Shown here: positions 121 to 7,668 of the stretch, in pieces
How the letters are laid out: the number at the start of each line of letters is the position of its first letter
How positions within the stretch are numbered: the first letter of the stretch is position 1
Source: a virus
Lineage: Duplodnaviria > Heunggongvirae > Uroviricota > Caudoviricetes
Reading direction: 5' to 3' (one strand)
Length of the DNA stretch: 7,668 bases
IMG/VR virus record: IMGVR_UViG_2651869696_000012
The notes under the pieces: model-generated
The model's database searches: none
The model's input: the letters and a program-made list of their open reading frames with translations, nothing else
What the model was told of the DNA's origin: nothing
Translations under genes and position numbers: made by a program

Positions 121-783
121 ATGTCAATTGAGTGTATTTTAATCGGGAAGCATCATGGGGGTTCTGATTACTGGAGAACTCCATTTTTGTTATTTAAGAA
201 CTTACACCGTGAATTTATTTTCAGTCTGGATGGTGCTGCAACTGAGCATGACGCATTGTTGCCACGGTTCACCGATGATATCCACAATCAGTCATGGGTT
301 GGTGAAAGGGTATTCTGTAACCCACCATACAGCGACACTAAAACATTCCTCGTAAAAGCATCTGAAGCAGATTTAGCGGTATTCCTGATGCCCTACCGAC
401 CCCAAACCATATACTGGCTTAAGCACATCTTCACAAACCTGCTTTGCCATGAAATCCGTATTCTTCATCGTGCAGTTAAATGCCTTCCACCAGCAGGGCA
501 TAACGGGCTTGTTATTCGTTCACCGTTTCCAAGTGCAGTCGTTGTTTTTAAAAAAGAACCACGTAAGCATGAAATTACACAGATGGTTTGCTGTGCTGAC
601 ACGCTATTACCGTTAACCATCATTAACCGTGGTGGACTAAGAGGAAGACCCACCATTTACCCACCTGAGACGCTCGACAGCTTCACAAAGCTATACAGGC
701 AAGGAAAACCCATTAAGTGCATTGCAGATGCTCTCAGAATGCCTCTGAGCACGTCATACAGGATTGCTCAAAGGTTGAGCTAA
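121..783 (+). CDS. Phage-type N6-adenine DNA methyltransferase (Dam family) with C-terminal Hin/resolvase-like HTH domain
   Basis: 220-aa ORF. N-terminal part has W-R-T-P near the N-terminus, FSLDGAAT, and the catalytic NPPY tetrapeptide (..VFCNPPYSD..), the pattern I recall for the phage Dam family (Pfam PF05869). The C-terminal ~45 aa (GRPTIYPPETLDSFTKLYRQGKPIKCIADALRMPLSTSYRIAQRL) aligns by eye with the Hin invertase HTH (GRP...G.P...iA......ST.YR). No Shine-Dalgarno before the ATG (AT-rich leader); first in-frame start after the stop at 103-105. Confidence 0.8.
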   Translation: MSIECILIGKHHGGSDYWRTPFLLFKNLHREFIFSLDGAATEHDALLPRFTDDIHNQSWVGERVFCNPPYSDTKTFLVKASEADLAVFLMPYRPQTIYWLKHIFTNLLCHEIRILHRAVKCLPPAGHNGLVIRSPFPSAVVVFKKEPRKHEITQMVCCADTLLPLTIINRGGLRGRPTIYPPETLDSFTKLYRQGKPIKCIADALRMPLSTSYRIAQRLS

Positions 784-831
784 AATTCTCATATAGAGCA
801 CTGATTATGAGAGTGTTAAAGAGGCGATTTC

Positions 832-851
832 CCCTGTCTGGGGTTATTCGC
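832..851. repeat. Copy 1 of a ~20-bp motif CCCTKTCTGGGGTTAT(T)CGC containing a short CCC/GGG hairpin
   Basis: cccctgtctggggttattcgc read directly; a second copy lies ~170 bp downstream (1001-1019). Confidence 0.5.
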
Positions 852-1000
852 TTTTTACTGGAAGGGTTATTTTACAGAGGTTTTTCAAACCCCCTCAATA
901 ATAGAAACGAGCAACAAACGAAGAGCGAGAAATAAAATATTGAGACTGGTGAACGGGGCCTGTAAAGATTGTTTAAGAAGTCGGTTAAGAAGGTGGCTCT

Positions 1001-1019
1001 CCCTTTCTGGGGTTATCGC
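1001..1019. repeat. Copy 2 of the CCCTKTCTGGGGTTATCGC motif
   Basis: ccctttctggggttatcgc; shares the TCTGGGGTTAT core with the copy at 832-851. Confidence 0.5.
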
Positions 1020-1048
1020 CCTGCATCTTAGTGAGTCCAGGAAGTTCT

Positions 1049-1220
1049 CTGTGAAGGGTCTTGTCAGTCCTTTATATTGGGTGATTACAACTCTTTGAAA
1101 AATAAGAACTTTTAGAAATCACTGTTAAGGTTACAGAGTTAACTGTGAAGAGGCTTGTCAGTTCTCTATATATGGCTAATTACAACTTATTGAAAAATAA
1201 GAACTTTTAGAAGTTACTGT
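1049..1220. repeat. Two tandem ~78-bp imperfect direct repeats (units 1049-1125 and 1143-1220) separated by 17 bp
   Basis: Unit 1 ctgtgaagggtcttgtcagtcctttatattgggtgattacaactctttgaaaaataagaacttttagaaatcactgt; unit 2 ctgtgaagaggcttgtcagttctctatatatggctaattacaacttattgaaaaataagaacttttagaagttactgt. Roughly 80-85% identical by eye. Each starts CTGTGAAG and ends ACTGT. Confidence 0.7.
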
Positions 1221-1302
1221 CAGAGAGGTGAACACTTGATAGATACAGCTTTCCGGTTATGTCAAGCTGTTTTTTAATAGATAGCACAAAATGCTAAAGA
1301 TG

Positions 1303-1331
1303 CCCCTATACCATCTCGTACAGGGGGTTTT
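1303..1331 (+). terminator. Candidate intrinsic terminator (possibly bidirectional)
   Basis: Stem cccctatac (1303-1311) / gtacagggg (1318-1326) with one mismatch, 6-nt loop, then GTTTT. Sits between the repeat region and the 3' end of the minus-strand small ORF. Confidence 0.4.
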
Positions 1332-1340
1332 GAAGGGAGT

Positions 1341-1517
1341 TTAACGGGGTTCTGTGTGGTCATTATCCTTAAGGTCAAGCGTCCATGTACGACCGAACAG
1401 TTTAAATACAACAAGCACTCTGACGAGGATGTAGCGGAGTATCAGACCTGCAATCAGCCCAACACCTCCACCAGCCCATACATCAGGTGACCCCAGTTCA
1501 GGAGGGAGATTTACCAT
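1341..1517 (-). CDS. Hypothetical small membrane protein (58 aa from the internal Met; the track ORF extends to 1586)
   Basis: Minus-strand ORF with a hydrophobic segment (GGVGLIAGLILRYILVRVLVVF). The Met at 1515-1517 is preceded on the minus strand by AAGGA with a 6-nt spacer; the upstream Met at 1586 has no SD and lies inside repeat R1. It is the only minus-strand candidate and is locally GC-richer, so it could be spurious. Confidence 0.3.
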   Translation of the reverse strand: MVNLPPELGSPDVWAGGGVGLIAGLILRYILVRVLVVFKLFGRTWTLDLKDNDHTEPR

Positions 1518-1532
1518 TAGTTTTCCTTGTAA

Positions 1533-1629
1533 GACGCTTTCAATCGCATTCTGACACAAAAAAGTACCTGACCTTATAGTTGACATGAAGAGGCCGTTTA
1601 ACTCGTTACAGAGCGATTGAAGAAGTCTG
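1533..1629. repeat. R1: ~97-bp element with ~20-bp terminal inverted repeats; copy 1 of 2
   Basis: Left arm gacgctttcaatcgcattctgacacaaaaaa, variable core, right arm gtttaactcgttacagagcgattgaagaagtctg. Left arm and reverse complement of right arm match (GACgCTtTCAATCGC..TCTG vs GACttCTTCAATCGCTCTG). Second copy at 3200-3320. Confidence 0.7.
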
Positions 1630-1765
1630 TGTGCAATGCAAAAACCATGCGGCCATTCTCATGGTTGATTCGGTTTATCGAATAAACCTCATAGCCACGC
1701 CTCATATTTTACTCTCCCCATAGAACCATTATACCACAGATGTTAATGAAATGTTAAAAAAATGC

Positions 1766-1806
1766 TTGACATTAGTCTTTGAAAATGCTAGCATTGCCTA
1801 TATAAG
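1766..1806 (+). promoter_or_regulatory. Sigma70-like promoter region for the four-gene cassette (two overlapping candidate configurations)
   Basis: TTGACA (1766-1771), 17-bp spacer, extended -10 TGcTAGCAT (1786-1794); alternatively TTGAAA (1779-1784), 16 bp, TATAAG (1801-1806). A-rich tract immediately upstream (1745-1763) resembles an UP element. First gene starts at 1845. Confidence 0.45.
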
Positions 1807-1844
1807 TTAACAGAGAATTAACAATTATAAGGACTAGCTTATGA

Positions 1845-2402
1845 ATGAACGACAGAGAATTTAGAGCGATGCTTCAGGCATCAAGAGAACGCAACAAGCA
1901 CAACTCCTACAGCTACACAGACACCCCCACCAGCCACGAAGTACCCAAGTTCACCAGAGCAGAGCGCAAAGGCATTGACGAAGTAATTCGGGCAATTACA
2001 CCGAGGGAGCGTTATATGTCAATCAGAAAGAGCACGAAGAACACTATCAAGAATTATTTGAATAACTTTGATTCTTACGAGCAGTCATCAAGCTTGCTTG
2101 ATGATATTTTTATTGGATTCTGTAGAAGTGAAGGTCACCCGAAATACAACAAAAAACTATTTTATCTTCTAAAGAATCTTGATGAAATTAACGCAGCCAG
2201 CGTGACAAATTATCTTCAGCGACAAGCAACCAGACTTAGTTATGAATTACCAAGCGATAAATATTGTGCATTGCTTGCTGTAATGTGTGCAAAGCTAATT
2301 GGTGTTGTTGAACATCATGTTGCCGTTGGGAATATTGAACCAATGGAAAACGAGCAACCAGATTTCGAGTTTGACCCGTATTTAGTTACAGAGGAATTTT
2401 AA
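1845..2402 (+). CDS. Hypothetical protein (185 aa) with acidic C-terminal tail
   Basis: ORF with AAGGA 11 nt upstream; first gene of a translationally coupled cassette; C-terminus ..ENEQPDFEFDPYLVTEEF. No family recognised. Confidence 0.7.
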   Translation: MNDREFRAMLQASRERNKHNSYSYTDTPTSHEVPKFTRAERKGIDEVIRAITPRERYMSIRKSTKNTIKNYLNNFDSYEQSSSLLDDIFIGFCRSEGHPKYNKKLFYLLKNLDEINAASVTNYLQRQATRLSYELPSDKYCALLAVMCAKLIGVVEHHVAVGNIEPMENEQPDFEFDPYLVTEEF

Positions 2403-2403
2403 A

Positions 2404-2685
2404 ATGAAAAACAGACACACTCTAACCCGTATTTCAGAGGAAGCTTTTAATGAGCTTACCAGAATTAAACGAGCGACTAACTTGCCTCATCAAACTGTTA
2501 TGCAACTTGCAATTGCTAAAGAAGTTACTGAGTCGGATTTACTTAAATATCCAGTCTCTAAAGGTCGCAAACACATCCGAATTGCTCAGGACGCTTTAGA
2601 TACTTTGAAGGCACTTAACAGCTTTAAAATTGATATTGCCCGACTATTGAGTATTAAGATTCACAAGTTAGCGATGGAGGTTTAA
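2404..2685 (+). CDS. Putative ribbon-helix-helix-like DNA-binding protein (93 aa)
   Basis: GAGG 9 nt upstream (inside the TTACAGAGG motif). N-terminus NRHTLTRISEEAFNELTRIKRATNLPHQTVMQLAIAKEV fits the beta-strand / helix A / turn / helix B pattern of CopG/Arc-type RHH proteins; assignment by pattern only. Confidence 0.65.
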   Translation: MKNRHTLTRISEEAFNELTRIKRATNLPHQTVMQLAIAKEVTESDLLKYPVSKGRKHIRIAQDALDTLKALNSFKIDIARLLSIKIHKLAMEV

Positions 2686-2900
2686 TGCTATGCGTTACCT
2701 TTGAATACCACACGGATAAAATGATTCGCTACATCTCCGACCTCCTGATTAAAGGAAACGGATTCGGTGACATCCATAACTCAAGAGATATTTTCATTAA
2801 AGCCATTGGCCCAAATGAAGTACTGAAAACAGCAGTTACACCGGAATGGTTTGAGCGTCACAAGATTGAATTAGGTTATTGGGGTGAGGAGGTTTTATGA
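2685..2900 (+). CDS. Hypothetical protein (71 aa)
   Basis: Start overlaps upstream stop (TAATG); GGAGG 4 nt upstream; no recognisable family. Confidence 0.6.
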   Translation: MLCVTFEYHTDKMIRYISDLLIKGNGFGDIHNSRDIFIKAIGPNEVLKTAVTPEWFERHKIELGYWGEEVL

Positions 2901-3184
2901 AACCTTGGCATGAAGATGTTAGACGATATTTTACAGAACACCTTATCTATGATGAATCCAGTGATTCCCTGTGCTGGTCTGATGGAGAGTCAGTCACGAT
3001 AAATACCGACGACTACGGCAACAAAACATTTAATATAGGCCGATATACTTTCTACGTGAAATATGTTGTCTGGTTCCTTTATCATGGCTATCAATCCAAT
3101 AAGCAAATTATCCATCGAAATGGTAACAGAGCCGATACCAGACCAAAAAATCTTATGCAAGTCCGAGACTTTAAGAGAAATTAG
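2897..3184 (+). CDS. Small HNH-type (HNH_3-like) endonuclease-fold protein, apparently degenerate
   Basis: ATGA overlap with upstream gene; GAGGAGG 4 nt upstream. Sequence ..IYDESSDSLCW..GNKTF..YTFYVKYVVWFLYHGYQSNKQIIHRNGNRADTRPKNLMQV follows the architecture of phage HNH proteins (YDPETG..W ... HRLAW ... DHIDGN..NN...NLR) but with substitutions at usually conserved positions (HRL to KYV; DNR/NN to DT). Confidence 0.7.
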   Translation: MKPWHEDVRRYFTEHLIYDESSDSLCWSDGESVTINTDDYGNKTFNIGRYTFYVKYVVWFLYHGYQSNKQIIHRNGNRADTRPKNLMQVRDFKRN

Positions 3185-3199
3185 AAAAATAGCTTCTCA

Positions 3200-3320
3200 G
3201 ACGCTCTCAATCGCATTCTAACGCAAAAAACTATCTTATTTTAGGGTGGGTAATACCACTGTACAGGCTACCCCTGAAAAAGACTGTTTAGCTCGTTACA
3301 GAGCGATTGAGGAGGTCTGG
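3200..3320. repeat. R2: ~121-bp element with ~20-bp terminal inverted repeats; copy 2 of 2
   Basis: Left arm gacgctctcaatcgcattctaacgcaaaaaa, 55-bp variable core, right arm gtttagctcgttacagagcgattgaggaggtctgg. Same arms as R1 at 1533-1629 with a different, longer core. Immediately after the cassette stop (3184) and 20 bp before the next gene. Confidence 0.7.
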
Positions 3321-3340
3321 TAAAAAGGAGATTTTAAGAA

Positions 3341-3670
3341 ATGAGAGAATTAAACTTTCCATTACAAATTATGCTTGATATCGACACAGTAAATATGATT
3401 CAACACTTCGTTGATTCCGGTGTATCAATTGACTTTGACAGGCTGTTAAAGCTGATGGCTGATAATGCAGAAAACATCTCTGACTTTATTCAGTCGGTGG
3501 AGTTTAACGAGCCTCGAATGATGCTACCAATTACCGACTCAAACATGAAAAGATTGGTTATCGAGCAAACGAACAAACACAGTATTTCCCCAGAGCAATT
3601 TTTGAAAGGTGCTGTGACAATCCTGCACAGCGATAATATTCTGGTGACGGATTCTATGAGGGTTCACTAA
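3341..3670 (+). CDS. Hypothetical acidic protein (109 aa)
   Basis: AAGGAG 10 nt upstream; Asp/Glu-rich; no recognisable family. Confidence 0.7.
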   Translation: MRELNFPLQIMLDIDTVNMIQHFVDSGVSIDFDRLLKLMADNAENISDFIQSVEFNEPRMMLPITDSNMKRLVIEQTNKHSISPEQFLKGAVTILHSDNILVTDSMRVH

Positions 3671-3998: not shown

Positions 3999-4067
3999 AA
4001 GAGTTTTTAAACAGAGCTTTTAAAGAAAGTTTTTCCTGAAACTTCGTTAACGTTAAAGCAAACCTTC

Positions 4068-4101
4068 AAAGCCCTTCACAGATTATGTTTAGGGCTTTTT
4101 T
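4068..4101 (+). terminator. Second candidate intrinsic terminator
   Basis: aaagccct (4068-4075) / agggcttt (4091-4098) with a 15-nt loop, followed by a T run to 4101. Loop is large, so lower confidence. Confidence 0.45.
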
Positions 4102-4218
4102 CAGCTTTTAAAAAGCATACTTGGCAAACGCCTTTTAAGTCTCTTCTAAGTTCGTAGGCTGTCAGGTGTGCTTTTTAAAAACTGAAACATAAATTATCTT
4201 AGAAGAGGAAAAATAATA

Positions 4219-4923
4219 ATGTCTATCCGTGATGAACATGAAATGATTATCGAAAACAAACCAAGTGCACTTGATATTCACGAATTAAGTTTGCGTGAAT
4301 CTTTTGATAGAGCTTGGCGGGAATCACACGAAGTAAATAAAGGTCCATATATTCCACCAGAACCACTCGAGATTCCAAGAGTTGAAATTGATTTTTCGAT
4401 GAATGAGGAATGTGAGCTTGATTTGAAACTGAAGCTGCAACGCCGATATTTCCAAGCTATTAAAGACTCTCAAGAAGCAATGAGAAGTGTTTACGAGAAA
4501 ATTCAGTCCAAGCTTGAAGACGAAATCGACGAAATGGCTATTTTGATGGAGCTTCAAACCAATTCTTATGCTTATTTCTCTCGACTAGACCGTGACGGTT
4601 GGGGGTATGACCCTGTAGAGATTGGTAAAGTGATTGCAGATTTACCAGAAGGTCAAAGGGTTATTCGTACGGAAAGGGCTATCAGAGCGCCACATCAACT
4701 GTCTCTAATTGTTGCTGATAAATCACAAGCTGAGCTTGAAGAAATTGCCAAAGAGAAACTGATGAAAGCAAGAGAAAATGAGATTAATTTGCTGAAATCA
4801 AGACTGGCTAAGCTGATTAGTGACCATCAAGCGCTGGCTAAGGAGTACCGTCAAGAGTTGGCACAGATTATCAGCTTCAATGATTTTCTGAGTGTTCCAC
4901 GAGAATTTAGCAAGGCTGTTTAA
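4219..4923 (+). CDS. Hypothetical glutamate-rich, probably helical/coiled-coil protein (234 aa)
   Basis: GAGG 10 nt upstream; long charged helical-looking stretches (..AELEEIAKEKLMKARENEINLLKSRLAKLISDHQALAKEYRQELAQ..); no recognisable family. Confidence 0.75.
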   Translation: MSIRDEHEMIIENKPSALDIHELSLRESFDRAWRESHEVNKGPYIPPEPLEIPRVEIDFSMNEECELDLKLKLQRRYFQAIKDSQEAMRSVYEKIQSKLEDEIDEMAILMELQTNSYAYFSRLDRDGWGYDPVEIGKVIADLPEGQRVIRTERAIRAPHQLSLIVADKSQAELEEIAKEKLMKARENEINLLKSRLAKLISDHQALAKEYRQELAQIISFNDFLSVPREFSKAV

Positions 4924-5252: not shown

Positions 5253-5260
5253 GTATGTGT

Positions 5261-5330
5261 GCTACGTGAAATCTTCTGAACAGATATACCCACCAAAAAT
5301 TATTTTTTACGTAGCTCACGCTTAACAGAG
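5261..5330. repeat. Repeat A: 70-bp element directly upstream of the tape-measure-like gene; copy 1 of 2
   Basis: gctacgtgaaatcttctgaacagatatacccaccaaaaattattttttacgtagctcacgcttaacagag. Contains inverted repeat GCTACGT...ACGTAGC and ends in TTAACAGAG, followed by the SD GAGGTGA. Second copy at 7406-7475. Confidence 0.7.
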
Positions 5331-5344
5331 GTGAAATATGAACA

Positions 5345-7393
5345 ATGGCACAATTTAAAGTTGATAGTTTTATCGTTGAGCTAGGCTTCAATGAAAACGT
5401 TATTAAGAGCTTGCAAAGAGTTGAAAAGGCAGCTTTGCAGTCAGCACAAAGAATTGAAAAGAACCTTAACAAAGGCTTCAAGATTAATACCAAGCAACTT
5501 GACAGCAATCTGACAAGTTCTTTGAAGTCAATGGAAGGAAAAATTAATAAGACCTTTGACCGTCTGGAAGCTAGAGCAAGAAACACAAAAGTTTTCCGTT
5601 TCACAAGTCAGGTTAACGATGCTGTTAATCCTCCAAAACAACCGAGACAGCCACGAATTAGCGGCAACAGAGCAATCACAGCAGCTTATTCAGCTAATAT
5701 GTCTAAGTTAAAGGGCTTTGACCCTATTTTGCAGAAATACATCAAATCTCAGTTTTACGGGCTATCTGCTAAAGCCGGTTCAATGGATTCTTCAAAATTC
5801 AATGAGAAGCTGTCTCAGTTAAATGCTTCAGTCAGAGAAGCAATTGCTAAAGCTAAAGGTCATACATCCACCAGCATTAATGGTGACAGAGCAGCTAGCA
5901 GCCTTGATAACCTGTCTTCGGCAGCAGTCAAAACAGCAGGTGCATTTATCTCAATGCAGGCTGTATTAGCCAGTTATCAGAAGATTATGGAAGTTGGTTT
6001 ACAGCGTGCAAGTGCTGAGCGTTCAATTGATTTCGTATTTGATAAAGATGCAGGTCAGGTAAAAGAGTTCACAAAGTCATTAGCTCAAACAACGGGTTTA
6101 GATATCGCTGAACTGCAATCACAGTTTGCTGGTTTTGGTGCTTCAGCTAAAGAATCTATGGGTATTCAGGGTTCTGAAGAACTTTTTAAAAATATGATTG
6201 GCTATTCTCGTTTAATGGGTCGAAGTGAAGAAGAGATTAAGCGAGCATTAACAGCGCTATCGCAGATGGCTGGTAAGGGTCAGGTGATGGCTGAGGAGCT
6301 GAAAGGTCAATTAGCTGAAGCTGTTCCTGGTATGGTTCAGGTATTCGCTAAAGCAACCGGAAAGACTGAACAGGAATTATTTGATGCCATGAAGAAGGGG
6401 GCTTTAAAATCTGCCGATACTCTTCAGAAGGTCACTCAGGAACTGAATAAACAAATCACCGCTAAAGGTGGCTGGAAAGCCATTTCAGAAAGTACACAGG
6501 CACAACTAGGGAACTTGAAAAACTCTTGGAATACCACGCTTGACAGTATTTTCAGAGGTTCTGAAGATGGTTTACAGGACTTCACAAGAAGCTTAACAAC
6601 GCTTTTAAATAGTCTTGGTGGGAGTGGTAAAAGTCTTGGTGAATCTCTTGGTAGTCTCATGACTTCTATGTCAAGTGGTGTGGATTCATTGACTGATATC
6701 AGCTACAGGGTAAGAGCATTCTTTGATGAGGTGACATTAGCTTACCGTGGTTTAACCGATGAACAAAAGAAAGTAGTTGATGCTTTAGGTTCTGGCTTGA
6801 TTAATAGTTTAAAAGTCTTGGCTGGTGTTATTGCTGTGAATAAAGTTGTTGGTGTAACCAGAAGTATTTACGGGCTTATGACTGCTATCACAAGATTAGG
6901 TCAGGTTGCTGATACTACAGCGGATAACGTGAATAGAAAGAATGGGAAACCATCAAGACTGAATCTTGGGAATATGCTATTAGCTGGTAGCGCTCTCTAT
7001 GCAGGTTATGAAAGATTAGCCTCTACACCTGAACGAATGGAAGCACAAGCTAAATTACCAGAGTTAGCTAAAGAATCTGGACTTAAGCCAGTATTTACTA
7101 TGGACGATGTGAAAGGTTGGTTTAATAGTGCAGCTATGAATCTTGCTAACTTCCAGCATCCAGAATTAAACAACATTAAGCAAGATGCGGCATTAACGAA
7201 TACGGATATCCAAAGCCTGAGAGATGAAATTAGTGCTTTGAGCAAACGTATTCAGGAGCCTGTGAAAGTTTCACTTGGTGGTGAAGTTGCTATTAAACCA
7301 GATGAAACCAGCTTTATGACATTTAACAGCAGTCTGTACGACCAATACGCAGAAGCTACGCTATTAAGTTCATCATTCCCAGAAGATGATTGA
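5345..7393 (+). CDS. Tape-measure-domain protein (682 aa)
   Basis: Long ORF with GAGGTGA 11 nt upstream. Central region ..RALTALSQMAGKGQVMAEELKGQLAEAVPGMVQVFAKATGKTEQELFDAMKKGALKSADTLQKV.. matches, as I recall it, the conserved tape-measure domain of lambda-H-like proteins (TIGR02675-type). Gly/Ser/Ala/Lys-rich with hydrophobic segments (..LAGVIAVNKVVGV..). Short for a classical tape measure and lacks adjacent tail genes. Confidence 0.8.
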   Translation: MAQFKVDSFIVELGFNENVIKSLQRVEKAALQSAQRIEKNLNKGFKINTKQLDSNLTSSLKSMEGKINKTFDRLEARARNTKVFRFTSQVNDAVNPPKQPRQPRISGNRAITAAYSANMSKLKGFDPILQKYIKSQFYGLSAKAGSMDSSKFNEKLSQLNASVREAIAKAKGHTSTSINGDRAASSLDNLSSAAVKTAGAFISMQAVLASYQKIMEVGLQRASAERSIDFVFDKDAGQVKEFTKSLAQTTGLDIAELQSQFAGFGASAKESMGIQGSEELFKNMIGYSRLMGRSEEEIKRALTALSQMAGKGQVMAEELKGQLAEAVPGMVQVFAKATGKTEQELFDAMKKGALKSADTLQKVTQELNKQITAKGGWKAISESTQAQLGNLKNSWNTTLDSIFRGSEDGLQDFTRSLTTLLNSLGGSGKSLGESLGSLMTSMSSGVDSLTDISYRVRAFFDEVTLAYRGLTDEQKKVVDALGSGLINSLKVLAGVIAVNKVVGVTRSIYGLMTAITRLGQVADTTADNVNRKNGKPSRLNLGNMLLAGSALYAGYERLASTPERMEAQAKLPELAKESGLKPVFTMDDVKGWFNSAAMNLANFQHPELNNIKQDAALTNTDIQSLRDEISALSKRIQEPVKVSLGGEVAIKPDETSFMTFNSSLYDQYAEATLLSSSFPEDD

Positions 7394-7405
7394 TAATAGT
7401 CGAAT

Positions 7406-7475
7406 GCTACGTGAAATCTCTTGAACAGATATACCCACTGAAAAATAGAATTTACGTACAACACGCTTAACAGAG
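7406..7475. repeat. Repeat B: second copy of the 70-bp element, directly downstream of the tape-measure-like gene
   Basis: gctacgtgaaatctcttgaacagatatacccactgaaaaatagaatttacgtacaacacgcttaacagag; about 85% identical to copy A by eye; same length and same TTAACAGAG 3' end. Confidence 0.7.
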
Positions 7476-7533: not shown

Positions 7534-7668
7534 AATCAAAGGAGAATTTAATGATTTACACTAATCAGCTTCGGGTGATGCTGCCAACTTACTGATTTAG
7601 TGTATGATGGTGTTTTTGAGGTGCTCCAGTGGCTTCTGTTTCTATCAGCTGTCCCTCCTGTTCAGCTA

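What the first reader, a model, noticed from the sequence alone, without database searches (positions are those of the whole stretch)
1845..3184. Translationally coupled cassette of small proteins with an RHH-like member
Four ORFs are packed with overlapping or near-overlapping junctions (stop 2402 / start 2404; TAATG at 2685; ATGA at 2897), each with a good SD. One looks like an RHH DNA-binding protein, one is HNH-like and two are unknown. Together with the flanking R1/R2 repeats this looks like an accessory module (regulatory, toxin-antitoxin-like or anti-defence) rather than core phage machinery. I cannot assign a function.
Basis: inference. Interest (0 to 1): 0.45.

Follow-up and report, generated by a model that had tools for sequence, protein, structure and literature searches.

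The report
Small-gene operon of an E. coli island
The four tightly packed small genes are real and form the main promoter-driven operon of an apparently undescribed 11.5-kb chromosomal island in about 8-10% of E. coli genomes; it carries tail genes like those of Felix O1-type phages, one gene encodes an unusual single-chain double ribbon-helix-helix DNA-binding protein, and the operon's function is untested.

Summary
ORF1 (1845-2402), ORF2 (2404-2685), ORF3 (2685-2900) and ORF4 (2897-3184) are intact, coupled genes under purifying selection (median dN/dS 0.09-0.21).

ORF2 is a confident single-chain double ribbon-helix-helix protein (pLDDT 90). Its best fold matches are TraY and DndE. ORF4 is a minimal HNH_3 domain with no DNA-targeting domain and a partly degenerate active site. 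ORF1 and ORF3 are orphans confined to Enterobacteriaceae, and ORF1 has no recognisable fold.

The context is not a phage. None of 50,697 phage or 72,556 plasmid records encodes these proteins. The window lies in a ~11.5 kb island bounded by serine recombinases and found at three or more E. coli sites. The island's Dit-like tail protein is 66% identical to a Felixounavirus protein.

ORF1-ORF2 is the conserved core behind a conserved sigma-70 promoter. ORF3-ORF4 is a swappable block that has spread recently between diverged islands. R1 and R2 are real and about 95% conserved, but R1 is often absent, so they do not delimit the cassette.

The toxin-antitoxin reading is contradicted and the anti-defence reading has no support. 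Best reading: the island's regulatory/DNA-transaction operon plus an exchangeable accessory pair. This is inferred, not shown.

The parts
1766..1794 (+). Rightward sigma-70 promoter of the cassette: TTGACA (1766-1771), 17 nt, extended -10 TGcTAGCAT (1786-1794)
   Evidence: Scored 10 of 12 with a TG motif. Both hexamers are conserved in all 13 aligned loci. Transcription from it has not been shown.
1728..1757 (-). Divergent leftward promoter: TTAACA, 18 nt, TGgTATAAT, back-to-back with the cassette promoter and reading towards the small membrane-protein ORF
   Evidence: Scored 11 of 12 with a TG motif. Conserved in the 13-locus alignment.
1806..1822 (+). Conserved inverted repeat GTTAAC-N6-TTAAC in the predicted 5' leader of the operon. 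It contains one copy of the TTAACAGAG motif and is a candidate operator.
   Evidence: Read from the sequence. Conserved with small variation in 13 loci. No binding has been tested.
1845..2402 (+). ORF1, 185 aa. An island-specific helical protein of unknown fold. It is the conserved first gene of the operon and evolves fast (alleles down to 58% identity within E. coli).
2404..2685 (+). ORF2, 93 aa. A single-chain double ribbon-helix-helix (beta-alpha-alpha twice) DNA-binding protein.
2685..2900 (+). ORF3, 71 aa. An orphan small protein that is part of the exchangeable block.
   Evidence: No family was found. Only 25 clusters exist, essentially all Escherichia/Shigella. A second allele class at 36-40% identity occurs in L002, L008 and L014. 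The ATG at 2685 and the 71-aa frame are kept in 6 loci, and dN/dS is 0.18.
2897..3184 (+). ORF4, 95 aa. A minimal HNH_3 (I-HmuI-type) domain without a DNA-targeting domain.
   Evidence: Pfam HNH_3 gives E 1.8e-8 and PHROG families annotated HNH endonuclease match. ORF4 is 29% identical (E 9e-8) to the N-terminal half of an AP2-HNH protein encoded in L005, which itself matches I-HmuI, PDB 1u3e. H73 and N85 are kept, but Ile72 replaces the Asp of the DH pair. Class-2 alleles have Phe at the His position. dN/dS is 0.09.
1526..1632 (.). R1, a 107-nt conserved non-coding element with 16-nt inverted arms. It lies between the small leftward ORF and the divergent promoters and is present in only some islands.
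   Evidence: Defined by repeats D2, D4 and I20. Copies average 94% identity against 75% for ORF1 DNA. It is absent in L001, L004, L012 and L013. As RNA it is not unusually stable on the + strand (z -0.77).
3193..3322 (+). R2, a 130-nt conserved non-coding element between ORF4 and ORF5. It can form a long hairpin with a 23-bp outer helix.
   Evidence: RNA MFE is -47.8 kcal/mol with z -5.7. Mean identity is 95.5% across 10 loci whose flanks average 71%. The outer helix is 100% pairable but invariant, so covariation gives no evidence. No T-run follows and no terminator was called there. It occurs in only 417 of 5,426 genomes with a median of 1 copy. There is no Rfam match.
1341..1517 (-). Small leftward ORF (58 aa from the ATG at 1517) encoding a protein with one hydrophobic helix. 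It is transcribed divergently from the cassette.
   Evidence: ORF list. Annotated as a 62-aa hypothetical protein in RefSeq relatives. Conserved in Citrobacter at L004 9055-9237. No family was found.
3341..3670 (+). ORF5, 109 aa. The next gene downstream of R2 and probably the continuation of the same transcript. It is part of the conserved island backbone.
   Evidence: It is present in all related loci, including L008, which lacks ORF1-4. dN/dS is 0.235. No family and no phage homologue were found.

Best explanation
The four genes form the rightward, sigma-70-driven, translationally coupled operon of a small integrative island. The island is satellite-like or a defence island, not a phage, and is bounded by serine recombinases.

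The operon has two layers.

1. A conserved core, ORF1-ORF2. ORF2 is a monomeric pseudo-dimer of two ribbon-helix-helix units and inserts a two-stranded beta-ribbon into the DNA major groove, as TraY does. Being asymmetric, it most likely recognises asymmetric sites on the island's own DNA. Candidate sites are the one-strand-only TTA(A)CAGAG motif, the GTTAAC-N6-TTAAC repeat in the operon leader, and the R1/R2 elements. Through these sites it would control transcription from the divergent promoter pair, or organise island DNA for excision or replication. ORF1 would be its island-specific partner. ORF1 evolves fast and has deep allele classes, as expected for a specificity or sensing component.

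2. An exchangeable accessory block, ORF3-ORF4. It moves between diverged islands by recombination together with R2. ORF4 is a bare HNH_3 domain with no targeting domain and weakened catalytic residues, so its nuclease activity is doubtful and would need a partner.

Shown: gene reality, coupling, promoter conservation, the ORF2 fold, the ORF4 domain, the core-versus-variable split, and the island context.
Inferred: DNA binding by ORF2, its sites, the regulatory role, and any role of ORF1, ORF3 and ORF4.
For: - Real, coupled genes.
- A conserved promoter and a back-to-back divergent promoter in 13 loci.
- The ORF2 double-RHH model and its fold matches to TraY, DndE, single-chain Arc, AvtR and VirC2. 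TraY is documented as a monomer carrying a whole RHH dimer fold and binding the DNA major groove through its two beta-strands (bioRxiv 10.1101/2024.12.19.629322).
- ORF2's beta-strand residues are invariant across alleles. In parallel, the non-coding R elements are 94-95% conserved and TTA(A)CAGAG is enriched: 8 copies against ~0.5 expected, all on the + strand, recurring in every related island.
- ORF1 and ORF2 are retained wherever this module type occurs, while the genes after ORF2 vary: ORF3+HNH, HNH class 2 plus other genes, or a 128-aa HTH protein.
- An ORF1 relative sits in the same position of an analogous Dam / tape-measure / large-serine-recombinase island in another bacterium.
- In L008 the same slot holds a different module that also contains an ORF2 homologue (hhalign 96%) and an ORF3 homologue (40% identity), plus a replication-initiator-like protein. 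This marks the slot as the island's DNA-transaction/regulation region.
- The ORF3-ORF4-R2 block is 96-100% identical across islands whose ORF1 is 64-95% and ORF5 43-84% identical.
Against: - No experiment or binding-site evidence links ORF2 to any site.
- Variation of the leader motif (CAGAG, CAGAA, CAGGA) does not track ORF2 alleles.
- ORF2 reaches no curated RHH family threshold. DndE scores only E 0.1 (Pfam) and 0.0044 (NCBIfam).
- ORF1 has no fold or family match, so its 'partner/specificity' role rests on position and evolutionary rate alone.
- TraY and DndE, the closest folds, are not classical repressors, so a DNA-processing role is equally compatible.
- The promoter is a consensus match only, and no transcript data are available.
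Confidence: 0.45

Rival explanations
1. Replication module. ORF1 is the island's replication initiator. ORF2 is an origin-binding accessory factor, acting like TraY at oriT. ORF4 is a nicking HNH enzyme that opens the excised circle for rolling-circle replication. R1/R2 or the upstream repeats serve as the origin.
For: - In L008, ORF1's position is occupied by a protein matching phage replication-initiator families (phrog_270 E 3e-7, phrog_428, phrog_678).
- ORF2's best fold match, TraY, is a relaxosome accessory factor.
- ORF4 belongs to the I-HmuI lineage. I-HmuI is a nicking enzyme (from my own knowledge).
- Repeat-rich non-coding DNA lies just upstream, at 784-1340.
- Satellites such as PLE carry their own initiator and a repeat-containing origin (PMC7145576, abstract).
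Against: - ORF1 has no detectable similarity to the L008 initiator-like protein (hhalign probability 0.2%) or to any known initiator.
- ORF4 is absent from many islands (L004, L006, L007).
- ORF4's allele classes differ at the catalytic His, so it cannot be an essential replication nickase.
Confidence: 0.2
2. ORF3-ORF4 is a selfish, free-standing homing-endonuclease-type insertion, or the decaying remnant of one. It spreads between islands by cleavage-stimulated or ordinary recombination and contributes nothing to the operon's function.
For: - The HNH_3 domain is typical of phage homing endonucleases.
- Presence or absence varies in an otherwise homologous context.
- The block is 96-100% identical, with low dS (0.02-0.17), across islands whose flanks are saturated with substitutions.
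- Nuclease genes are known to sit at boundaries of genetic exchange in phages (PMC10055350, abstract).
Against: - ORF4 lacks any DNA-recognition domain. The related AP2-HNH protein has one.
- Ile replaces the Asp next to the catalytic His, and class-2 alleles lack the His.
- ORF4 is nevertheless under strong purifying selection (dN/dS 0.09), which argues for a retained function other than homing.
- ORF3 travels with it and has its own diverged allele classes.
Confidence: 0.25
3. Toxin-antitoxin or abortive-infection module. ORF2 is an RHH antitoxin and autorepressor, and a downstream gene (ORF3 or the HNH protein) is the toxin.
For: - The genes are small and have overlapping stop/start codons.
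- The island may be defence-related, given its tail-gene homologues of a virulent phage.
Against: - Both RHH units fill ORF2's 93 residues, leaving no C-terminal toxin-binding tail.
- Near-identical ORF2 alleles are followed by different genes: ORF3, HNH class 2 or a 128-aa HTH protein. A cognate toxin would co-vary with its antitoxin.
- No toxin, antitoxin or defence family was hit in Pfam, NCBIfam or PADLOC.
Confidence: 0.06
4. Helper-interference or anti-defence effectors. The small proteins, especially ORF1 and ORF3, target proteins of an infecting Felix O1-type phage or host defence systems, as many small satellite proteins do, rather than regulating the island.
For: - ORF1's many deep allele classes and rapid divergence (1,091 clusters at 90%; 58-92% identity among loci) resemble arms-race proteins.
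- The island is linked to Felixounavirus through its tail genes.
- The slot after ORF2 has variable gene content.
Against: - ORF1 is under overall purifying selection (dN/dS 0.21).
- ORF1 is the conserved first gene behind a housekeeping-type promoter.
- No similarity to any known anti-defence or interference protein was found.
- Nothing here tests protein-protein targets.
Confidence: 0.15

Closest known systems
F-plasmid TraY (relaxosome accessory protein) and other natural single-chain double-RHH proteins (DndE, AvtR, VirC2)
   Different: - Sequence identity is 6-13%, and no curated family threshold is reached.
- There is no relaxase, conjugation genes or dnd cluster nearby.
- ORF2 sits in an operon with orphan proteins inside a recombinase-bounded island.
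- Its DNA sites and role are unknown.
I-HmuI / AP2-HNH phage homing endonucleases (Pfam HNH_3, PF13392)
   Same: ORF4 passes the HNH_3 gathering score. It aligns with the N-terminal nuclease half of an AP2-HNH protein, which in turn matches I-HmuI, PDB 1u3e.
   Different: - ORF4 is only 95 aa and has no AP2 or other DNA-binding domain.
- Ile replaces the Asp of the DH pair.
- A second allele class in the same slot has Phe instead of the catalytic His.
- No close phage homologue exists.
[quoted passage not shown]
   Same: This is a compact island with a large serine recombinase at one end, many small orphan ORFs on one strand and conserved non-coding repeats. It also has a sequence link to a virulent myovirus group. 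PLE features are taken from PMC7145576 and PMC6002521 (abstracts).
   Different: - No protein homology to PLE genes was sought or seen.
- This island is smaller (~11.5 kb) and carries its own tape measure and Dit-like tail genes.
- Induction, excision, replication or transduction by any phage is untested.
Divergently transcribed regulatory switch regions of satellites and temperate phages (for example SaPI stl/str)
   Same: Two conserved, back-to-back sigma-70-type promoters drive a leftward small gene and a rightward operon whose second gene is a small DNA-binding protein. The SaPI comparison comes from my own knowledge.
   Different: - There is no homology to Stl, Str, CI or Cro-type proteins.
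- The DNA-binding protein is a double RHH rather than an HTH.
- The leftward gene encodes a small membrane protein rather than a repressor.

Membership tests
Ribbon-helix-helix superfamily, single-chain double-RHH subgroup (TraY / DndE / AvtR / VirC2) | Two consecutive beta-strand / helix / helix units in one polypeptide that pack as a pseudo-dimer | tested here: met
   The AF2 model has pLDDT 90.1 and pTM 0.82, with elements E5-11 H12-25 H29-37 and E55-61 H62-71 H78-92. This is a prediction, not a solved structure.
Ribbon-helix-helix superfamily, single-chain double-RHH subgroup (TraY / DndE / AvtR / VirC2) | Structural similarity over both units to solved members | tested here: met
Ribbon-helix-helix superfamily, single-chain double-RHH subgroup (TraY / DndE / AvtR / VirC2) | Significant match to a curated sequence model of an RHH family | tested here: not met
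   Only sub-threshold DndE hits were found: Pfam E 0.1 at 13.4 bits against a cut-off of 25, and NCBIfam E 0.0044 at 17.4 bits against 71.85. PDB sequence and profile searches found nothing.
Ribbon-helix-helix superfamily, single-chain double-RHH subgroup (TraY / DndE / AvtR / VirC2) | Sequence-specific DNA binding through the beta-ribbon | not testable with these tools
   The evidence is indirect only. The beta-strand residues H5, T6, R9, R55, H57 and R59 are invariant in 22 sequences down to 61% identity.
HNH_3 / I-HmuI-type HNH endonucleases | Match to Pfam PF13392 above the gathering score | tested here: met
   ORF4 scores 34.3 bits against a cut-off of 24.8, E 1.8e-8, over residues 53-89. 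PHROG families annotated HNH endonuclease also match.
HNH_3 / I-HmuI-type HNH endonucleases | Catalytic His of the HNH motif and the terminal Asn | tested here: inconclusive
   The window's allele keeps H73 and N85. The class-2 alleles in the same slot (L002, L005, L014) have Phe at the His position.
HNH_3 / I-HmuI-type HNH endonucleases | Asp immediately before the catalytic His (a metal ligand in I-HmuI, recalled from my own knowledge) | tested here: not met
   ORF4 has Ile72 where the AP2-HNH relative has Asp (IDH against IIH).
HNH_3 / I-HmuI-type HNH endonucleases | An attached DNA-recognition domain (AP2, NUMOD, IENR or similar) that gives target specificity | tested here: not met
   ORF4 ends after the HNH_3 core at 95 aa. 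The related 174-aa protein carries an AP2 domain that ORF4 lacks.
Type II toxin-antitoxin module | A fixed cognate pair: an antitoxin with a toxin-binding extension and a co-inherited toxin of a known family | tested here: not met
   ORF2 has no extension beyond the two RHH units. The gene downstream of ORF2 differs between islands. No toxin or defence family was hit.
Phage satellite (PLE-like) or phage-related integrative island | Integrase and defined insertion into a chromosomal site | tested here: met
   In relatives, a 507-aa large serine recombinase sits at one end and the DUF72 gene (yecE) is split around ~11.5 kb. Other copies lie at ymdF-wrbA and yciI-tonB. The window itself stops at an IS1 before that end.
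Phage satellite (PLE-like) or phage-related integrative island | Lacks a full virion gene set but shows a specific link to a helper phage | tested here: inconclusive
   Only two structural genes are present. The tape measure protein is 29% identical over its full length to Felixounavirus tape measure proteins. The Dit-like protein is 66% identical to EC6 gp046. This shows relatedness, not dependence.
Phage satellite (PLE-like) or phage-related integrative island | Induction, excision, replication and packaging triggered by a helper phage | not testable with these tools
   This needs infection experiments.
Free-standing homing endonuclease gene | Sporadic presence in otherwise homologous loci, with evidence of recent lateral spread | tested here: met
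   205 of 418 cassette-bearing genomes have the full block, while others lack it. The block is 96-100% identical across diverged islands.
Free-standing homing endonuclease gene | An active, site-specific nuclease | tested here: inconclusive
   The domain is present, but it has no targeting domain and a weakened active site. Activity is not testable here.

The most novel reading that the evidence does not exclude
The cassette is the control/DNA-transaction operon of a previously undescribed family of E. coli and Enterobacteriaceae islands. These islands would parasitise or block virulent Felix O1-type myoviruses, as an E. coli counterpart of Vibrio PLE. Uniquely, they carry their own tape measure and distal-tail genes. 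ORF1 would be a fast-evolving phage-sensing or specificity factor. ORF2, a rare natural single-chain double RHH, would read an island-wide asymmetric DNA signal (TTA(A)CAGAG and the R elements).
Probability: 0.25. Interest if true: 0.8.

Novelty: new variant of a known kind. Interest (0 to 1): 0.5.

Why it matters
If the best reading is right, this operon controls an island present in roughly one in ten complete E. coli genomes that I could not find described in the searchable literature. The island has two tail-initiation genes matching those of Felix O1-type virulent phages, one of them at 66% identity.

Satellites or defence islands directed at virulent phages are well documented in Vibrio (PLE) and marine bacteria but not in E. 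coli. An E. coli example would be experimentally very tractable, and it is relevant to phage therapy because Felix O1-like phages are used in therapy cocktails.

Independently of that, ORF2 adds a new and easily testable member to the small group of natural single-chain double-RHH proteins. ORF1 and ORF3 are conserved orphan families with no fold or function assigned.

If instead the operon is merely a regulatory cassette of a decaying element, the result is of modest, mainly annotational value.

Tried and rejected
1. **Palindromic operator.** AATGCTAGCATT (1784-1795) overlaps the -10, but the exact palindrome exists only in this window. Other loci have non-palindromic variants, and the sequence is simply the extended -10. 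Rejected.

2. **R1/R2 as a MITE-like mobile element.** R1 is present in some loci and absent in others, and it has terminal inverted arms. However, R-like sequence occurs in only 417 of 5,426 genomes, with a median of one copy, always tied to this island family. Rejected.

3. **R2 as a proven RNA structure.** The hairpin is very stable. The 23-bp outer helix never varies, the inner variants are only wobble-type, and shuffles match the observed score. R1 copies carry pair-breaking changes. Left as plausible but unproven.

4. **TTA(A)CAGAG as a copy of a Felixounavirus promoter signal.** The motif is not enriched in EC6 positions 1-45000. Only half of that genome was tested.

5. **ORF1 as a diverged homologue of the L008 replication-initiator-like protein.** No similarity.

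6. **L008's 98-aa protein as an HNH relative.** This by-eye impression is not supported (Pfam).

7. **ORF5 as a paralogue of ORF2.** This was a by-eye double beta-alpha-alpha pattern. hhalign gives probability 0.8%.

8. **The 234-aa and 71-aa genes upstream of the tape measure gene as tail assembly chaperones.** No similarity to the EC6 chaperones and no phage homologues.

9. **Sequence searches of ORF1, ORF2 and ORF4 against PDB chains.** Only noise.

10. **Rfam.** Only two sub-threshold hits at 4066-4218, and none in the cassette or R elements.

11. **AlphaFold-database fold search for ORF1.** The library was unavailable.

12. **Eight literature searches** on yecE, satellite, tape measure, serine recombinase, Felixounavirus, PLE-like and TraY. 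No description of this island or cassette was found. Absence from an open-access library is not proof of novelty.
Full report
**1. The observation**

The window contains four same-strand ORFs at exactly the stated coordinates: 1845-2402 (185 aa), 2404-2685 (93 aa), 2685-2900 (71 aa) and 2897-3184 (95 aa).

The junctions, read from the sequence, are as follows.
- ORF1 to ORF2: TAA, one base, then ATG at 2400-2406.
- ORF2 to ORF3: TAATG at 2683-2687.
- ORF3 to ORF4: ATGA at 2897-2900.

ORF2, ORF3 and ORF4 have strong, well-spaced Shine-Dalgarno sequences: GAGGA with 8 nt, GGAGG with 4 nt and GAGGAGG with 4 nt. ORF1 has AAGGA with an 11-nt spacer, which is acceptable but not ideal. Its start at 1845 is supported by the N-terminus MNDREF/MRDAEF, which is conserved even in distant relatives.

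These are genes, not chance ORFs.
- In 6-12 related loci all frames are intact.
- Substitutions concentrate at third codon positions.
- Median pairwise dN/dS is 0.21 (ORF1), 0.145 (ORF2), 0.18 (ORF3) and 0.09 (ORF4).
- The 71-aa form of ORF3, starting in the TAATG overlap, is kept in all six loci that have it. RefSeq sometimes annotates a shorter 59-aa form.

**2. The four proteins**

*ORF2.* An AlphaFold2 model built on 22 homologues is confident (pLDDT 90.1, pTM 0.82). It shows strand 5-11, helices 12-25 and 29-37, a short linker helix, then strand 55-61 and helices 62-71 and 78-92. That is two ribbon-helix-helix units in one chain.

- TraY is described as a monomer containing the whole RHH dimer fold, binding the DNA major groove through its two strands and binding its sites in a train (bioRxiv 10.1101/2024.12.19.629322).
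- At the sequence level only sub-threshold DndE signals exist. I therefore file ORF2 as RHH-fold by prediction, not as a member of any curated family.
- The residues of both beta-strands are invariant in all alleles down to 61% identity.

*ORF4.* It passes the Pfam HNH_3 threshold.

- It aligns at 29% identity (E 9e-8) with the N-terminal half of a 174-aa AP2-HNH protein encoded elsewhere in a sister island. That protein matches the I-HmuI homing endonuclease, PDB 1u3e.
- ORF4 stops after the nuclease core and has no DNA-recognition domain.
- It keeps the motif His (H73) and the terminal Asn (N85), but has Ile where the relative has the Asp of the 'DH' pair.
- A second allele class (~40% identical) occupying the same slot in other islands has Phe instead of the His.
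- Nuclease activity is therefore not a conserved property of this slot, although ORF4 is under the strongest purifying selection of the four genes.

*ORF1.* It has no family in Pfam, PHROGs, NCBIfam or PADLOC.

- Its homologues form 1,091 clusters at 90% identity, all Enterobacteriaceae and all annotated 'hypothetical'.
- An exhaustive HMMER scan of 1.84 billion representatives found only 22 hits. These include four longer proteins (274-317 aa, 28-35% identical) that share the region ~56-167.
- The AF2 model is confident only in that core (pLDDT 82-92 for 61-165).

*ORF3.* It is an orphan with 25 clusters, essentially all Escherichia/Shigella. A second allele class at 36-40% identity exists.

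**3. The setting is an island, not a phage**

- The concatenated four proteins find nothing in 50,697 phage records or 72,556 plasmid records at E<=1e-3. DNA searches of those collections match only the IS1 end at 7574-7668.
- By contrast, 528 of 5,426 complete E. coli genomes match parts of the window, always on the chromosome.
- In an annotated relative the island is ~11.5 kb and splits the DUF72 gene (yecE). The gene order is: small serine recombinase/invertase, Dam methyltransferase with an HTH tail, small leftward ORF, the four-gene cassette, ORF5, a ~234-aa gene, a ~71-aa gene, tape measure protein, 'baseplate protein', and a 507-aa large serine recombinase.
- Sister islands sit at ymdF-wrbA and yciI-tonB in E. 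coli and at yciI-tonB in Citrobacter.
- The 'baseplate protein' is a Dit-like distal tail protein. It is 66% identical (E 3e-121) to the protein encoded immediately after the tape measure gene of Felixounavirus EC6.
- The tape measure protein is 29% identical over its full length to Felixounavirus tape measure proteins.
- No other island protein has a phage homologue.
- Eight literature searches found no description of such an island.

**4. Anatomy of the cassette across islands**

- The cassette region is found in 418 genomes, complete in 205.
- ORF1 and ORF2 always occur together behind a conserved promoter: TTGACA, 17 nt, extended -10 TGcTAGyAT at 1766-1794. A back-to-back divergent promoter (1757-1728) reads towards a small membrane-protein ORF.
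- The genes after ORF2 vary:
  - ORF3 plus HNH class 1 (this window, L001, L009-L013);
  - HNH class 2 plus a 128-aa protein with a C-terminal HTH (L005);
  - HNH class 2 plus an 84-aa protein plus ORF3 class 2 (L014; L002 also carries HNH class 2 and ORF3 class 2);
  - the 128-aa protein alone (L004, L006, L007).
- In L008 the whole stretch from the Dam gene to R2 is replaced by a different module. It contains a protein matching phage replication-initiator families (phrog_270, E 3e-7), a 98-aa protein, an ORF2 homologue (hhalign 96%, 33% identity), a 76-aa protein and an ORF3 homologue (40% identity).
- A distant ORF1 relative occupies the same relative position in an analogous Dam / tape-measure / large-serine-recombinase island beside cmoA/cmoB in another bacterium.
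- Identity to the window is mosaic: ORF1 64-95%, ORF2 86-94%, ORF3-ORF4-R2 96-100% and ORF5 43-84%. ORF3 and ORF4 also have very low dS.
- ORF1-ORF2 is therefore a conserved core of this island type, and ORF3-ORF4(-R2) is a recently spreading, exchangeable block.

**5. The repeats**

- R1 (about 1526-1632) and R2 (about 3193-3322) share two conserved arms at 80% and 86% identity. Each copy has its own 16-nt inverted termini.
- Across islands they are far better conserved than the neighbouring genes: R2 95.5% against 71% for its flanks, and R1 94% against 75% for ORF1. They are therefore functional cis elements.
- R2 can fold into a very stable hairpin (-47.8 kcal/mol, z -5.7). No T-run follows it and no terminator was called there, so read-through into ORF5 is likely.
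- The 23-bp outer helix never varies, inner variants are only wobble-type, and R1 copies carry pair-breaking changes. Covariation therefore gives no support either way.
- R1 is missing from L001, L004, L012 and L013. R-like sequence is restricted to this island family. The R elements are neither cassette boundaries nor a MITE.
- A short motif, TTA(A)CAGAG, occurs 8 times in the window against ~0.5 expected, always on the + strand. It lies in both R elements and just upstream of ORF1, ORF2, ORF5, the tape measure gene and the Dit-like gene. It recurs in all sister islands. It is not enriched in the tested half of phage EC6.

**6. Most likely mechanism**

The best-supported reading is that this is the island's main sigma-70-driven operon.

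- ORF2 is a monomeric pseudo-dimeric RHH protein that binds asymmetric sites on island DNA. It would either regulate the divergent promoter pair or organise DNA for excision or replication.
- ORF1 is its island-specific, fast-diverging partner.
- ORF3-ORF4 is an exchangeable accessory pair of uncertain activity.

The steps that are shown are gene reality, coupling, promoter conservation, folds and domains, the core-versus-variable architecture and the island context. DNA binding, the binding sites and the regulatory or processing role are inferred. I give this about 0.45.

The rivals are:
- a replication module (0.2). The positional analogy with L008 speaks for it. ORF1 has no homology to an initiator, and ORF4 is dispensable.
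- ORF3-ORF4 as a selfish homing-endonuclease-type insertion (0.25). This is compatible with the main reading.
- helper-interference or anti-defence effectors (0.15);
- a toxin-antitoxin module (0.06). This is contradicted by ORF2's architecture, by its variable partners and by the absence of any toxin or defence family hit.

**7. Comparison with the known, and verdict**

- ORF2 works like TraY, DndE and AvtR at the fold level but is not a member of their sequence families.
- ORF4 is a member of HNH_3 by the curated threshold, but it lacks two features of active homing enzymes.
- The island resembles PLE-type satellites in layout, but none of the behaviours that define a satellite has been tested.

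The 'phage', 'flanking repeats', 'toxin-antitoxin' and 'anti-defence' elements are not supported.

The cassette itself is a new variant of a known kind: a small regulatory/DNA-transaction operon of a mobile element. Its main interest comes from its rare double-RHH protein, its two orphan families and, above all, the seemingly undescribed island linked to Felix O1-type phages in which it sits.

Noticed in passing
whole window; L001 18200-29700; L004-L008: The window is part of a ~11.5 kb chromosomal island bounded by a small and a large serine recombinase. It matches 528 of 5,426 complete E. coli genomes and occurs at three or more integration sites: within yecE, at ymdF-wrbA and at yciI-tonB. 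I found no description of it in the searchable literature.
   Followed up: partly
window 5345-7393 and 7551-7573; L004 16831-17610; L015 28886-31926: The island carries its own tape measure gene (29% identical over its full length to Felixounavirus tape measure proteins) and a Dit-like distal tail gene. The Dit-like protein is 66% identical (E 3e-121) to the protein encoded right after the tape measure gene of virulent phage EC6. This suggests a satellite or tail-assembly-interference relationship with Felix O1-type phages.
   Followed up: partly
window 7574-7668: An IS1 terminus interrupts the Dit-like gene (ATG at 7551) after about eight codons, so this particular island copy has lost that gene.
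   Followed up: partly
window 872, 1131, 1606, 1807, 2386, 3296, 5322, 7467: The motif TTA(A)CAGAG occurs 8 times against ~0.5 expected, always on the + strand. Most copies lie just upstream of gene starts or inside R1 and R2, and the motif recurs in all sister islands. It is a possible island-wide regulatory or processing signal.
   Followed up: partly
window 5260-5330 and 7405-7475: A second pair of 71-nt repeats (85% identical) precedes the tape measure and Dit-like genes. Each copy has its own inverted arms (CTACGTGAAA...TTTACGTAG) and ends in TTAACAGAG. RNA folding z scores are -2.1 and -2.3.
   Followed up: partly
window 784-1340: A 550-nt non-coding region lies between the Dam gene and the small leftward ORF. 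It holds two tandem ~95-nt repeats (1043-1125 and 1137-1220, in two segments) and another repeat pair (815-847 and 984-1016). It could be an origin or a promoter array.
   Followed up: no
window 1341-1517 (- strand): A conserved small ORF (58-62 aa) with one hydrophobic helix is transcribed divergently from the cassette by a strong consensus promoter (1757-1728). In this window R1 lies in its 5' leader. It could be a small membrane toxin, an exclusion protein or a lysis-type protein.
   Followed up: no
window 3341-3670: ORF5 (109 aa) is a conserved backbone gene directly after R2. By eye it shows two strand-helix-helix-like segments, like ORF2, but it has no detectable homology to ORF2 (hhalign probability 0.8%). 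Its fold was not predicted.
   Followed up: partly
window 4099-4187: A 28-nt inverted repeat (86% complementary, 33-nt loop) lies upstream of the 234-aa gene. It gives only sub-threshold Rfam hits (a plant microRNA family and a Streptococcus sRNA family) that are almost certainly spurious.
   Followed up: no
window 4219-4923; L005 11799-12509: RefSeq names the ~234-aa backbone protein 'transposase' in several genomes. Here it matches no transposase family; the only hit is a sub-threshold DUF7384 match. It has no phage homologue.
   Followed up: partly
window 121-783: The island's Dam-type N6-adenine methyltransferase carries a C-terminal resolvase-type HTH (HTH_7, E 0.0016). The same fusion is seen in the analogous island of another bacterium (L017 6174-6914).
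   Followed up: no
L016/L017 5700-16825: An analogous island lies beside cmoA/cmoB in a different bacterium. Its order is Dam-HTH, a 146-aa gene, an ORF1-like 274-aa gene, HTH proteins, a small resolvase, a tape measure gene and a large serine recombinase. The island architecture therefore extends beyond the Escherichia/Citrobacter group.
   Followed up: partly
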